In this document: one piece after another, positions 16,896-40,420 of the stretch | Layout of the letters: the number at the start of each line of letters is the position of its first letter | Numbering within the stretch: position 1 is the first letter of the stretch | NCBI GenBank assembly: GCA_964016885.1 | Contig: OZ024761.1 | Coordinates: 3,100,001 to 3,164,000 of the forward strand | Reading direction: 5' to 3' | Length of the DNA: 64,000 nucleotides | Origin: Eledone cirrhosa | Lineage: Eukaryota | The notes under the pieces: generated by a model | Told to the model about the DNA's origin: nothing | The model's input: only the letters and a program-made list of their open reading frames with translations | Database searches by the model: none | Translations under genes and position numbers: made by a program

Positions 16896-18251
16896 ATGTA
16901 AGTATGCATGTATACGTACATACATATATGTATACAGACGTACAGTAGCATGCACATATATATATATATATACATATATACATACATATGCATACAGGTA
17001 CACATACATATATGCACGTATCAGTTTAGCGGCGCTAACGTCGCTTTGTTCGTTTGTAAACAAACTGAACAGCCTGAATTTATGCCATACGGTGTTAAGG
17101 CAACCACGTCACCTTTTTGTTCAACACTGACACAGGAACGATGTACTAGTTTCAAGCTTGTTAGCTATCATCAGCACCGTTTACCCATCTGCCAGATAGT
17201 TGAACGTTCGAAAGTATATACTTTCCTTATGAAAATTAACGGCTGAGCAGCCTAATTTGCATATTGAGTGAGTTAAATCGGTCAGGCATACCGAAAACGA
17301 TAAATTGAAACAAAATGAAAACGAAATTTCATTTCTCACTCTTAGTATGGCACTTACTTAAATGTAAGTATGCATGTATACGTACATACATATATGTATA
17401 CAGACGTACAGTAGCATGCACATATATATATATATATACATATATACATACATATGCATACAGGTACACATACATATATGCACGTATCAGTTTAGCGGCG
17501 CTAACGTCGCTTTGTTCGTTTGTAAACAAACTGAACAGCCTGAATTTATGCCATACGGTGTTAAGGCAACCACGTCACCTTTTTGTTCAACACTGACACA
17601 GGAACGATGTACTAGTTTCAAGCTTGTTAGCTATCATCAGCACCGTTTACCCATCTGCCAGATAGTTGAACGTTCGAAAGTATATACTTTCCTTATGAAA
17701 ATTAACGGCTGAGCAGCCTAATTTGCATATTGAGTGAGTTAAATCGGTCAGGCATACCGAAAACGATAAATTGAAACAAAATGAAAACGAAATTTCATTT
17801 CTCACTCTTAGTATGGCACTTACTTAAATGTAAGTATGCATGTATACGTACATACATATATGTATACAGACGTACAGTAGCATGCACATATATATATATA
17901 TATATACATATATACATACATATGCATACAGGTACACATACATATATGCACGTATCAGTTTAGCGGCGCTAACGTCGCTTTGTTCGTTTGTAAACAAACT
18001 GAACAGCCTGAATTTATGCCATACGGTGTTAAGGCAACCACGTCACCTTTTTGTTCAACACTGACACAGGAACGATGTACTAGTTTCAAGCTTGTTAGCT
18101 ATCATCAGCACCGTTTACCCATCTGCCAGATAGTTGAACGTTCGAAAGTATATACTTTCCTTATGAAAATTAACGGCTGAGCAGCCTAATTTGCATATTG
18201 AGTGAGTTAAATCGGTATGCCTGACCGATTTAACTCACTCAATATGCAAAT
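16896..18251 (-). mobile_element. Tandem array of a 466-bp HHR-containing monomer (~2.8 copies) plus short inverted tail; retrozyme-like
   Basis: Units start at 16896, 17362 and 17828 and are essentially identical. 18213-18251 is an inverted copy. (TA)n on both sides. Confidence 0.88.
17137..17181 (-). ncRNA. Type I hammerhead ribozyme (identical copies at 17603-17647 and 18071-18115)
   Basis: Minus strand: AACGGTG-CTGATGA-T AGCT AACA AGCT T-GAAA-CTAG-TA-CATCGTT. Confidence 0.9.
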
Positions 18252-18963
18252 ATATATATATGTATATATATATATATATGTATATATGTATATATATATA
18301 TGTATATATATATATATATATGTATATATATGTATATATATATATATATATGTATATATGTATATATATATATGTATATATGTATATATATATATGTATA
18401 TATGTATATATATATATATATATATATGTATATATATATGTATATATATATATATATATATGTATATATATATATATATATATGTATATATATATGTATA
18501 TATGTATATATATATGTATATATATATGTATATATGTATATATATATATATGTATATATATATATATGTATATATGTATATATATATATGTATATATATA
18601 TATATGTATATATGTATATGTATATATATATGTATATATATATATATGTATATATGTATATGTATATATATATGTATATATATATATATGTATATGTATA
18701 TATATATGTATATATATATATATGTATATGTATATATATATGTATATATATATGTATATATATATATATGTATATGTATATATATATGTATATATATGTA
18801 TATGTATATATATATATATGTATATATATATGTATATATATGTATATGTATATATATATATATGTATATATATATATATGTATATACATATATATATACA
18901 TATATATATATATGTATATATATGTATATGTATATATATGTATATGTATATATATATATATAT
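18252..18963. repeat. (TA)n/(TATG)n microsatellite
   Basis: Visible directly. Confidence 0.95.
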
Positions 18964-19362
18964 GTTGTTATACTTTGGGAGGGTCATGTTGCCAATAAGA
19001 AACACACGCACCAGTTGCTTTCACTTCAGTTTATTATATATCTATAAATTTATAAATTTATAAATCTACAAACCTATAAATTTCTGGTTGGTTGGTTGGT
19101 TCCACAACCAGATAGTTGTTTATATATAGTCATAGTCCTTTCGTCACACACTCTGTGACCTCTTCAGTGACTGGGGATTCCTAAGGAAAGGCACAGAAAC
19201 AAGGAAAGGAATCCCCAGTCACTGAAGAGGTCACAGAGTGTGTAACGAAAGGACTATGACTATATATAAACAACTATCTGGTTGTGGAACCAACCAACCA
19301 ACCAGAAATTTATAGGTTTGTAGATTTATAAATTTATAAATTTATAGATATATAATAAACTG
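18964..19362. mobile_element. Fold-back pair of a PLE 3'-tail module, with HHR motifs at 19128-19172 (-) and 19217-19261 (+)
   Basis: Long inverted repeat centred at ~19195. AGTCA-CTGAAGA-G GTCACA..TGTGAC-GAAA-GGAC-TA-TGACT. Confidence 0.82.
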
Positions 19363-20099
19363 AAGTGTGTAAATGTGTAGAAGAAAGAAGGGGAGAGTAT
19401 AAAGGATAACATAAAAATAACAACACACACACACATATATATATATATATATATATATATATATATATATATATATATATATATATATATATATATATAT
19501 ATATATATATATATATATATATATATAGAGAGAGAGATTGTAGTTTGCTTCAGGCATTGTATATGATGTAGAAAGAGATAGAACGTTAAATAATGTAAAC
19601 TTGACTGTAGGTAACGACAAAGTAAATTATCCGAACATTCTTCTCTGAAAGTTCCCTCACTCTGAAGAAGGGAATTTAGTCCCGAAATATTAGGACAGCA
19701 GAAGCAGCAACAACAACAAAAAAAACAAAAAAAATTACCGGGTAACTTACTTTTTCGATACCTTCATCTTACAGTCAATTTTGTATTGTTTAACCTTCTC
19801 TGTCTTTCAACGTTATATATATATATATATATATATATATATATATATATATATATATATATATATATATATGAGAGATAGAGAGAGAGAGAAATATTAA
19901 AACAATGAAAATATACACAAAACTGTTAAAAAGAGAGAGTTACCTTGGGAGAGATTTAATAGTCCCTATATATTTCGGATTCACATCCATCAACTGGGGT
20001 TTTTTTCCGGGGTAAAGGTTATCTGTCGGACAGGTACGAAACGCGTCCTCCGCTGTTTGTTGTTTTGAATATCTGTTATTCTGATATATCTGATATATC

Positions 20100-20535
20100 T
20101 GTTATTCTTGAATATCTGGAACAGCAACATCACAACTTACAATTAAGGACAAAATGAAAACACACACACACATAGAACAAACAACCAACCAGTAACATGT
20201 AAATAAACAAATAAATAAATGAACATAAACACACACAGACACCCGGATGTGGCGCATGCGCAAACTGAACACACAACACACACACAGAAACAAAATGGCG
20301 TAGGACAGAACAAAGGAGATGAACAGAAACAAAGAAGAATCCCAGTCACTGAAGAGGTCACAGAGTGTGTGACGAAAGAACTATGACAATATATAAACAA
20401 CTATCTGGTTGTGGAACCAACCAACCAACCAGAAATTTATAAATTTATTATAAATTTATTATAATAATTGAAGTGAAATAACTCGGTGTGCGTGTGTTTC
20501 TTATTGGCAACATGACCCTCCCAAAGTATAGCAAT
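20100..20535 (+). mobile_element. Longer copy of the same PLE tail family, with HHR motif at 20344-20387
   Basis: GTCA-CTGAAGA-GGTCACAGAGTGTGTGAC-GAAA-GAAC-TA-TGAC. The end CATGACCCTCCCAAAGTATA is shared with 35138-35190 and 50730-50790. Confidence 0.8.
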
Positions 20536-38359: not shown

Positions 38360-38452
38360 GAAGGTGTGTGGCTGAGTGGTTAGAGAGTTCGATTCCTAGA
38401 TCGGGCGATGCGTTATGTCCTTCAGCAACACACTTTATTTCATGTTGTTCCT
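38360..38452 (+). mobile_element. CORE-type tRNA-SINE fragment
   Basis: TGGCTGAGTGGTTAGAG A-box, GTTCGATTCC B-box, then TGTCCTTCAGCAACACACTTTATTTCA. Confidence 0.65.
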
Positions 38453-38792
38453 TCTACCTGGAGTTGCGACCGATAGATAAATATTAGCAATTGGAAAGAC
38501 CAACGGAAACATTGTTTCCTAGGTCCTATTTGACGAAAGTCGATCGATCCTTTATACTTAAATTCTCTATAGCAGTATGTTTTTAAAATGTTTTTTTTAA
38601 TTTTTAATGCTTTTAGCTGCTCCTTATTTTATTGCATTCAAATGCTCATATTTTCCATATGCTTCTTCTGCCTTTGCTATCTTTTCTTATATAAATGTTG
38701 ATACTTATGCTTAATTCCCATATTATGTATACTCCTAATATTCTTATAACAAACTTCTGATATTATATTGTGTGTTTTAACCTTTATTATAT

Positions 38793-38838
38793 ACTCTGAT
38801 GAATCCGGCCTCGTGCTAGGATGAAATGATCGTAAGGG
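38793..38838 (+). ncRNA. Hammerhead ribozyme motif (stem I weak)
   Basis: CTGATGA-[ATCC GGC..GCT AGGAT]-GAAA-TGATCG-TA-AGG. Confidence 0.6.
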
Positions 38839-38930
38839 ATTAGATGTTTTAAACACTCATTGATTGTTTAATATATTCATATATATATATATATATATAT
38901 ATATATATATATATAATATATATATATATA

Positions 38931-40420
38931 TAGAAATTGGAATAAATGCTCTGAAATAGCGATATATATGTGAATATAGACATAGAATATTCGAAAATAT
39001 TCTGTATGTTTATAATAAACATTTTGAAGACCTAATCGCTATAGAATAGAATACGTCACGTATTACAATTAGATTCTCGATAAAAGCAAGGGAAGTAATC
39101 TACGCGTTTCATTCTTGTTAGAAATCATCAGGACTACATATCCAGTGCTTTTATCGAGAATGACACAGCTAGAGACTTATAGAATACTTAGCTGTGTACA
39201 GGAACTGGTTTGAAAGAGCGGTTGCCGGTCCGGCAGAAATTAGAAATTGGAATAAATGCTCTGAAATAGCGATATATATGTGAATATAGACATAGAATAT
39301 TCGAAAATATTCTGTATGTTTATAATAAACATTTTGAAGACCTAATCGCTATAGAATAGAATACGTCACGTATTACAATTAGATTCTCGATAAAAGCAAG
39401 GGAAGTAATCTACGCGTTTCATTCTTGTTAGAAATCATCAGGACTACATATCCAGTGCTTTTATCGAGAATGACACAGCTAGAGACTTATAGAATACTTA
39501 GCTGTGTACAGGAACTGGTTTGAAAGAGCGGTTGCCGGTCCGGCAGAAATTAGAAATTGGAATAAATGCTCTGAAATAGCGATATATATGTGAATATAGA
39601 CATAGAATATTCGAAAATATTCTGTATGTTTATAATAAACATTTTGAAGACCTAATCGCTATAGAATAGAATACGTCACGTATTACAATTAGATTCTCGA
39701 TAAAAGCAAGGGAAGTAATCTACGCGTTTCATTCTTGTTAGAAATCATCAGGACTACATATCCAGTGCTTTTATCGAGAATGACACAGCTAGAGACTTCA
39801 CATATATATCGCTATTTCAGAGCATTTATTCCAATTTCTAATTTCTGCCGGACCGGCAACCGCTCTTTCAAACCAGTTCCTGTACACAGCTAAGTATTCT
39901 ATAAGTCTCTAGCTGTGTCATTCTCGATAAAAGCACTGGATATGTAGTCCTGATGATTTCTAACAAGAATGAAACGCGTAGATTACTTCCCTTGCTTTTA
40001 TCGAGAATCTAATTGTAATACGTGACGTATTCTATTCTATAGCGATTAGGTCTTCAAAATGTTTATTATAAACATACAGAATATTTTCGAATATTCTATG
40101 TCTATATTCACATATATATCGCTATTTCAGAGCATTTATTCCAATTTCTAATTTCTGCCGGACCGGCAACCGCTCTTTCAAACCAGTTCCTGTACACAGC
40201 TAAGTATTCTATAAGTCTCTAGCTGTGTCATTCTCGATAAAAGCACTGGATATGTAGTCCTGATGATTTCTAACAAGAATGAAACGCGTAGATTACTTCC
40301 CTTGCTTTTATCGAGAATCTAATTGTAATACGTGACGTATTCTATTCTATAGCGATTAGGTCTTCAAAATGTTTATTATAAACATACAGAATATTTTCGA
40401 ATATTCTATGTCTATATTCA
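38931..40420. mobile_element. Inverted tandem array of a 310-bp HHR-containing monomer (2.8 copies minus sense, 2 copies plus sense); retrozyme-like
   Basis: Units start at 38931, 39241 and 39551. Inversion at ~39797; inverted units at 39797 and 40107. No differences seen by eye. (TA)n on both sides. Confidence 0.9.
39944..39986 (+). ncRNA. Type I hammerhead ribozyme (also 40254-40296 on +; 39095-39137, 39405-39447 and 39715-39757 on -)
   Basis: GTAGTC-CTGATGA-T TTCT AACA AGAA T-GAAA-CGCG-TA-GATTAC. Confidence 0.92.

What the first reader, a model, noticed from the sequence alone, without database searches (positions are those of the whole stretch)
17137..39986. The HHRs of the two arrays share an unusual architecture with full covariation
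Both have a U-U mismatch at the base of stem II, a 4-bp stem closed by the same AACA loop, a 4-nt palindromic stem III insert and a UA cleavage site. Yet every helix differs in sequence while staying paired: stem II AGCT/AGCT vs TTCT/AGAA, stem III CTAG vs CGCG, stem I AACGGTG/CATCGTT vs GTAGTC/GATTAC. This is the signature of selection on RNA structure. It suggests a distinct HHR subtype in which the AACA loop makes a tertiary contact with a stem I bulge (inference).
Basis: partly seen in the sequence, partly recalled or inferred. Interest (0 to 1): 0.75.

Follow-up and report, generated by a model that had tools for sequence, protein, structure and literature searches.

The report
Ordinary hammerhead ribozymes with loose stem
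Two abundant jumping repeats in this animal genome carry predicted self-cutting RNA motifs of the ordinary animal hammerhead type, and the shared features that looked like a new subtype (a U-U mismatch and an AACA loop) vary freely among tens of thousands of copies.

Summary
Both arrays carry type I hammerhead motifs; of 12 compared pairs 7 covary, 5 are identical, none breaks. Genome-wide the supposed hallmarks vary. The inner loop is not AACA in 19,032 copies (99 of 100 listed: AAUA) against 15,905 AACA. U-U is absent in 15,411 same-geometry motifs, including 3,926 of 13,277 family-B copies (A-U) and a sister family (G-C). Both motifs align without gaps in the core to Rfam HH9 (below its threshold), giving U-U + 3 bp + a six-base loop and U1.7, the ordinary type I layout. 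A lineage lacking the 'fourth pair' has inserted at 10 sites, whereas changes to the loop's last A are mostly scattered single copies. U10.1-U11.1 and weak palindromic helix III are published (PMC3088659; axolotl HHR_Amex2, PMC7229834; PMC4209133). These are non-LTR retrozymes, likely moved by Penelope-like elements; the scan has already described their two-armed arrays on other DNA of this genome. What remains: U-U is the majority form here (about 69%), and the genome offers a natural allelic series. Cleavage and expression are untested.

The parts
16532..16895 (.). (TA)n-rich microsatellite, left flank of the family A insertion
16893..18216 (-). Family A retrozyme array, long arm: 2.8 units of 466/468 nt, 99-100% identical
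17131..17188 (-). Family A hammerhead, copy 1 (core 17174-17144; predicted cut after 17144): stem Ib, 3-nt bulge, 6-bp stem Ia, U-U + 3 bp + UAACAA loop, CUAG insert, GUA site, U1.7
17597..17654 (-). Family A hammerhead, copy 2 (core 17640-17610)
18065..18122 (-). Family A hammerhead, copy 3 (core 18108-18078)
18212..18251 (+). Short inverted second arm of family A (unit positions 316-355, no ribozyme)
18250..18965 (.). (TA)n-rich microsatellite, right flank of the family A insertion
38871..38932 (.). (TA)n, left flank of the family B insertion
38931..39798 (-). Family B retrozyme array, left arm: 2.8 identical 310-nt units, hammerhead cores at 39131-39101, 39441-39411, 39751-39721; outer end at unit position about 170
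39797..40429 (+). Family B array, inverted right arm: 2.0 units; outer end at unit position about 139
39936..39993 (+). Family B hammerhead (core 39950-39980; predicted cut after 39980): stem Ib, 3-nt bulge, 6-bp stem Ia, U-U + 3 bp + UAACAA loop, CGCG insert, GUA site, U1.7
40246..40303 (+). Family B hammerhead, last copy (core 40260-40290)
40420..40444 (.). (TA)n, right flank of the family B insertion

Best explanation
The two arrays are copies of two unrelated, very abundant tandem-repeat families (466 and 310 nt) that each carry an ordinary type I hammerhead motif, predicted to cut its RNA once per unit, in which the U-U at the base of stem II is a common but exchangeable variant and not the mark of a new subtype. 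Shown: sequence, pairing, covariation across families, copy numbers, and exchange of U-U for A-U, G-C or C-G in amplified arrays. Inferred from known hammerheads: stem II is U-U + 3 bp + a six-base N-A-A-Y-A-A loop; the loop's last A pairs (reverse Hoogsteen) with U1.7 beside the 3-nt stem I bulge; the 4-nt palindrome makes helix III too weak in one copy, so neighbouring units pair their inserts and cut as a dimer. Inferred for the element: multimeric transcripts are cut to monomers, which circularise and are written back into (TA)n by a Penelope-like reverse transcriptase/endonuclease, giving two-armed arrays (non-LTR retrozymes).
For: Gap-free core alignment of both motifs to Rfam HH9 with its 4-position stem II, six-base loop, 6-bp stem I and U1.7 (18.5 and 19.2 bits). 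Loop: 15,905 AACA against 19,032 AADA, 99 of the 100 listed AAUA, in both families. Base of stem II: 15,411 non-U-U motifs of the same length (control 319), of which 9,548 G-C with the same UAAYAA loop. Family B: 3,926 A-U against 9,351 U-U; an A-U array 99% identical to the window's unit is two-armed with 11 ribozymes (L238). A-U rows nest inside U-U rows in a 19-unit tree. The 'fourth pair' changes on both sides in only 30 hits, while the three pairs below it covary. A family B lineage with A-A there makes up 23 of the 100 listed rows (hand count), at 10 loci with different flanks, 7 with family B on both arms. Among the 100 listed rows with the loop's last A changed, none has an opposite-strand partner within 1 kb (hand count), like the A13 core control. 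Column 52 (U1.7) is kept in 12 of 13 representatives. Duplex energy of the insert with itself: -6.8 (A) and -9.5 (B) kcal/mol. Literature: U10.1-U11.1 natural and the best-tolerated mismatch (PMC3088659); axolotl HHR_Amex2 has U-U, a 2-bp helix III with tetraloop, about 60,000 copies, and cuts better as a dimer (PMC7229834); weak palindromic helix III is typical of metazoan type I (PMC4209133); A-U1.7 Hoogsteen contact (PMC11875169; PMC6155905).
Against: No cleavage or expression data. Both motifs score far below the HH9 gathering threshold of 52 bits. Nearest-neighbour energy prefers the 4-bp/tetraloop reading by 1.4 kcal/mol in both, so the U-A may pair in the ground state. Changes at the loop's last A total 504, about twice the A13 control (234) and similar to the first loop base (456), so counts alone show no special constraint. 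L233 (2 of 2 ribozymes) and L234 (7 of 8 detected) carry that change in consecutive units and could be true insertions. One outside family has C-G at that position and no U1.7 (L097 group). The U1.7 count (2,152 non-U hits) is confounded by a 1-nt insertion in 311-nt family B lineages. U-U is still the majority, about 69% of 50,348 counted motifs, which tolerance alone may not explain. Clustering was judged on the first 100 listed rows of each search only.
Confidence: 0.8

Rival explanations
1. One reading: a distinct hammerhead subtype defined by U-U, a 4-bp stem and an AACA tetraloop with its own tertiary contact.
For: The combination recurs in two unrelated families here and in two outside contig families with different paired stems (7 loci). 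The U-A closing the tetraloop is energetically favoured and is C-G in one outside family.
Against: AAUA outnumbers AACA. U-U is exchanged for A-U, G-C and C-G in amplified arrays. The closing pair is lost in a lineage with 10 insertions. The layout matches Rfam HH9 column for column. U-U with a 2-bp helix III is published for axolotl. The outside search fixed U-U and AACA, so it cannot show their conservation.
Confidence: 0.07
2. U-U is favoured, not merely tolerated: it slows cleavage so that RNA circles or multimers survive long enough to be reverse-transcribed, and for that reason it recurs in unrelated families.
For: U-U is in at least 34,937 of 50,348 counted motifs, in both deep branches of family B and in young and old family A, and in further unrelated motifs of this genome with other stem lengths (L245, L243/L244, L050 group). 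About half of axolotl retrozyme hammerheads also have it.
Against: A derived A-U lineage has reached 30% of family B, and G-C family C has 9,548 copies with arrays of more than 20 units. Copy numbers reflect a few master lineages, not independent trials. No rates were measured.
Confidence: 0.13
3. The ribozyme no longer matters: the arrays spread as satellite DNA or as passive Penelope cargo and the motif is a relic.
For: For one Penelope-like element cleavage was not needed for insertion in vitro (PMC11167929); 8 of 9 Xenopus retrozymes showed no cleavage (10.64898/2026.07.22.740005). Local duplications spread loop mutants (L232).
Against: Core mutants at A13 are only 234, with no two of the 100 listed within 1 kb, while helices change in compensated pairs between lineages.
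Confidence: 0.06

Closest known systems
Axolotl HHR_Amex2 of retrozyme Rtz_353 (Cervera and de la Pena 2020, PMC7229834)
   Same: Type I hammerhead in a tandem repeat of a few hundred bases; U-U at the base of helix II; helix III of two pairs with a tetraloop; tens of thousands of copies; coexists with a sister form (HHR_Amex1) described without that mismatch; works better as a dimer.
   Different: Different host and unit sequence. Its loop sequence could not be compared (figure and supplement not readable). The paper calls its loop contact likely less stable; here the loop's last A and U1.7 are present. Two-armed arrays in (TA)n are not described in the parts read.
Canonical metazoan type I hammerheads (Schistosoma type; Rfam RF02275 HH9; PMC4209133, PMC6155905)
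   Same: Core, 6-bp stem I, 14 nt between A9 and G12 with a six-base A-rich loop, U1.7, 5' bulge and upper stem; short palindromic helix III.
   Different: 10.1-11.1 is U-U instead of a purine-pyrimidine pair in most copies; helix III is shorter than in HH9; scores are below the family threshold.
Metazoan non-LTR retrozymes as non-autonomous Penelope-like elements (PMC7229834; 10.64898/2026.07.22.740005; Penelope structure in 10.1101/2021.04.23.441226 and PMC11167929)
   Same: Non-coding, GC under 50%, tandem units with one type I hammerhead each; inverted second arm, microsatellite target and two alternative outer ends as in Penelope-like insertions.
   Different: Unit A (466 nt) is at the upper size limit. 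No homology to a pLTR of an autonomous element was shown here. Circular RNA was not tested.
Minimal PLE hammerheads (min-HHR, PMC4209133)
   Same: Palindromic or missing helix III, predicted dimer cleavage.
   Different: min-HHRs have a long helix II, short helix I and no tertiary contact; these motifs keep the canonical lengths.

Membership tests
Type I hammerhead ribozyme | Conserved core CUGANGA ... GAAA ... UH with stem I open | tested here: met
   (core columns invariant in 13 of 13)
Type I hammerhead ribozyme | Three helices supported by compensatory change | tested here: met
   stem Ia 100% paired, 6 of 6 pairs with double changes; stem II pairs 2-4 fully paired; rows were chosen by me as hammerhead-like, so the test leans to pass
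Type I hammerhead ribozyme | Purine-pyrimidine pair at 10.1-11.1 (usual, with published exceptions) | tested here: not met
   U-U in the window's copies; published tolerated variant; paired in 15,411 other copies
Type I hammerhead ribozyme | Loop II last A and U1.7 for the tertiary contact | tested here: inconclusive
   Both bases present in A, B, C; lineage pattern favours constraint on the A but totals do not; contact itself not observable
Type I hammerhead ribozyme | Self-cleavage | not testable with these tools
   needs an assay
Rfam hammerhead families (clan CL00010) | Score at or above gathering threshold | tested here: not met
   0 hits; best HH9 18.5 and 19.2 bits against 52; Hammerhead_1 not listed
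Non-LTR retrozyme | Tandem units of about 150-450 bp, one type I hammerhead each, non-coding, GC under 50% | tested here: met
   466 and 310 nt, GC 0.36 and 0.34; no real ORF in the arrays; unit A slightly above the quoted range
Non-LTR retrozyme | Dispersed, high copy number | tested here: met
Non-LTR retrozyme | Expressed as circular RNA | not testable with these tools
   no RNA holder listed
Non-LTR retrozyme | Derived from or mobilised by a Penelope-like element | tested here: inconclusive
   Penelope-like ORF pieces in the window and beside 4 family A loci, separated by TA repeats where read; no pLTR homology shown
Proposed U-U/AACA subtype | AACA loop and U-U conserved across families | tested here: not met

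The most novel reading that the evidence does not exclude
The U-U closure of stem II is a selected damper. It dominates several unrelated hammerhead families of this genome, and half of the axolotl's, because slower cutting keeps RNA circles intact for round-and-round reverse transcription. The more than 50,000 copies with U-U, A-U, G-C and C-G alleles would then be a natural fitness series linking ribozyme rate to transposition success.
Probability: 0.13. Interest if true: 0.6.

Novelty: new member of a known kind. Interest (0 to 1): 0.28.

Why it matters
As a subtype claim it matters little: each feature is published and none is fixed. The residual value is practical. One genome holds near-identical retrozyme units that differ at single ribozyme positions (U-U against A-U; first loop base U against A) and have each founded new insertions. 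This makes it directly testable how much cleavage activity a retrozyme needs in order to move, a question left open for Penelope-type elements. It also shows that the Rfam gathering search misses these motifs (0 of 8 in this window).

Tried and rejected
Rfam at gathering threshold: nothing. The repeat finder on the whole window: swamped by TA repeats. RNA evidence: no RNA holder listed. Four coded runs each hold unit B, three of them as a single 340-nt contig; I considered an RNA circle or horizontal transfer, but X1, X4 and X6 also hold family A pieces, including older variants, which fits trace DNA of the same animal, so nothing is concluded. Viral and metagenome scans: 8 of 108 pattern hits passed pairing filters; the single viral pass has a non-palindromic insert and is taken as chance. 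Idea that unit A is the pLTR of an autonomous Penelope-like element: rejected for now, because where read the neighbouring ORFs are 5'-truncated and separated by TA or other repeats. U1.7 count: uninterpretable owing to a 1-nt insertion lineage. MFE folding of single motifs gives z from -0.5 to -1.7 and does not recover the core; not informative. The supplement of PMC7229834 could not be read, so HHR_Amex2 was not compared base by base. No covariance model was built; pair counting on a 13-row alignment was used instead. The prokaryotic genome collection was not scanned. Look-up of earlier notes on the U-U subtype: none.
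Full report
Setting. The window is G000:C22:3100001-3164000 of a 3.0-Gb genome, rich in (TA)n and holding pieces of Penelope-like ORFs. I take it to be an animal, perhaps a cephalopod; that is a guess from recall and was not tested.

Observation. A descriptor scan finds three family A and five family B hammerhead cores exactly as described; the core pattern occurs 8 times against 0.01 per shuffled window. Units are 466 and 310 nt and share only the ribozyme and TA-rich stretches. 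Between the two motifs, 7 of 12 pairs change on both sides, 5 are identical and none breaks.

Is the loop AACA? The pattern with U-U and AACA has 15,905 exact matches (control 0); all 100 listed belong to A or B. The same pattern with a different third loop base has 19,032 (control 0); 99 of the 100 listed read AAUA, in both families. The identity of the two loops in this window is therefore partly luck.

Is U-U required? Motifs of the same length without U-U number 15,411 (control 319). They include family C, 466-469 nt and homologous to A, with G-C and the same UAAYAA loop (9,548 matches of that pattern), A-related copies with C-G, and family B copies with A-U: 3,926 against 9,351 U-U. An A-U array 99% identical to the window's unit has two arms and 11 ribozymes (L238). 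In a tree of 19 distinct B units, U-U occurs on both sides of the deepest split and the five A-U units group inside one side on a weakly supported node (87/85), so A-U looks derived and successful. Overall U-U accounts for at least 34,937 of 50,348 counted motifs (69%); classes such as C-A or U-U with other cleavage triplets were not counted.

Re-reading the stem. Both motifs align without gaps through the core to Rfam HH9 (18.5 and 19.2 bits, E 0.043 and 0.021, threshold 52). In that register stem II is U-U plus three pairs under a six-base loop, stem I has six pairs followed by an unpaired U (U1.7), and an upper stem follows a 3-nt bulge. On 13 representatives that I chose from A, B, C, one further family and two outside families, 92.8% of cells pair and the covariation score is 0.83 against 0.22 shuffled; the three middle pairs of stem II are always paired and covary, while the top U-A stays U-A in 10, is unpaired in 2 and is C-G in 1. 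Genome-wide only 30 motifs change both of those bases. Changing the first alone gives 456 hits; 23 of the 100 listed (hand count) are one family B lineage with A-A, at 10 loci. All 10 were fetched: flanks differ, 7 have family B on both arms, 5 have ribozymes on both arms. That lineage moved without the 'fourth pair'. Changing the last A alone gives 504 hits; among the 100 listed none has an opposite-strand partner within 1 kb, and the three tandem clusters are one alternating local duplication (5 of 11 ribozymes), one old one-directional array (7 of 8 detected) and one two-unit locus. For comparison 42 of 88 listed family A rows have a neighbour within 1 kb (hand count), and none of the 100 listed A13 core mutants does (234 in all). 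This favours a constrained last A. Against it: 504 is twice 234, two loci are ambiguous, energy favours the tetraloop by 1.4 kcal/mol, and one outside family lacks both the A and U1.7. The U1.7 count (2,152) is confounded: the listed family B arrays are 311-nt lineages whose extra base shifts the U by one.

Elsewhere. The U-U/AACA pattern gave 6 viral and 102 metagenome loci; 8 of 108 hits pass pairing filters: five JYMV01 contigs of one family, L135 and L174 of another, and one weak viral hit. The combination thus recurs outside this genome with new paired stems, but the pattern fixed U-U and AACA. Those loci are not tandem within 600 bp. Inside this genome U-U also closes stem II in motifs with other stem lengths.

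The element. Both arrays are two-armed, with arms pointing away from a central junction and both outer ends running into (TA)n; many other loci look the same. Inverted 5' copies, microsatellite targets and two alternative ends are Penelope-like traits (10.1101/2021.04.23.441226, passages; PMC11167929, passages). Earlier notes of this scan describe this layout for family B and others; I had noted it before the look-up and add nothing beyond confirming it.

Literature. PMC3088659 (passages and section 8) reports natural U10.1-U11.1 and says it supports more cleavage than any other mismatch there. PMC7229834 (parts 2 and 3 of 6; supplement unreadable) describes axolotl HHR_Amex2 with U-U, a two-pair helix III and about 60,000 copies, 22% cleavage as a monomer and much more as a dimer. 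PMC4209133 (part 1 of 4) gives the canonical metazoan type I as 6-bp helix I, 4-bp helix II and a weak palindromic helix III acting in dimers. PMC6155905 and PMC11875169 (passages) describe the conserved Hoogsteen contact between the loop's last A and U1.7. bioRxiv 10.64898/2026.07.22.740005 (parts 1-3 of 5) ties retrozymes to Penelope-like elements. Five searches (listings only) showed no paper on these particular families; subscription papers are not covered.

Verdict. Real, structurally selected type I hammerheads of two non-LTR retrozyme families; the U-U variant is known and exchangeable, the loop is N-A-A-Y-A-A, and the tertiary contact is likely the textbook one. Not a new subtype. The open point is why U-U is the majority form here. 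Cleavage, circles and mobilisation by a Penelope-like enzyme are inferred, not shown.

Noticed in passing
L229:38-894 (G000:C1:203813900-203815400): A two-armed insertion whose left arm is family C and right arm family B, between TA repeats on the right and a C array on the left. If one event, the two ends were copied from different RNAs; a nested insertion is not excluded.
   Followed up: partly
window 8350-8394 (+), 16179-16256 (+), 60051-60100 (-), weaker 36215-36266 (+): Further hammerhead motifs with long stem II inserts and 6-nt palindromic or near-palindromic helix III, outside tandem arrays; likely terminal repeats of Penelope-like elements.
   Followed up: no
window 10817-13209 (-), 23470-25126 (-), 35610-36011 (-): Broken Penelope-like ORFs: reverse transcriptase followed by a GIY-YIG-like domain (domain names from recall of the motifs; mutual tblastn hits).
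   Followed up: partly
L243:2787 (-) and L244:2702 (-): Downstream of a Penelope-like ORF, both copies carry a hammerhead-like motif with U-U at the base of stem II, a 4-bp helix III and A in place of U4 in the core.
   Followed up: no
L245:1515 (-), L245:1881 (+), L235 (+): Another U-U hammerhead type with a 3-bp stem II, short loop and longer helix III.
   Followed up: no
L135:600-760: The outside U-U/AACA hammerhead is followed within about 70 bases by TAACCC repeats, as described for telomere-attached Penelope-like elements.
   Followed up: no
family A unit, positions about 120-255 (window 17355-17490): A long TA-rich hairpin inside unit A varies in length between copies (units of 420-516 nt) and lies at one of the two usual array ends.
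   Followed up: partly
window 19034-19355, 40536-40635: Short perfect inverted-repeat elements near TA repeats, possibly truncated two-armed insertions of other families (seen).
   Followed up: no
window 42843-44135 and 52826-56696: Minisatellites of 55 bp (23.5 copies, 96% alike) and 30 bp (129 copies).
   Followed up: no
runs X1, X4, X6: Runs labelled as other organisms hold unit B as one 340-nt contig and also pieces of family A; likely trace DNA of the same animal, unresolved.
   Followed up: partly
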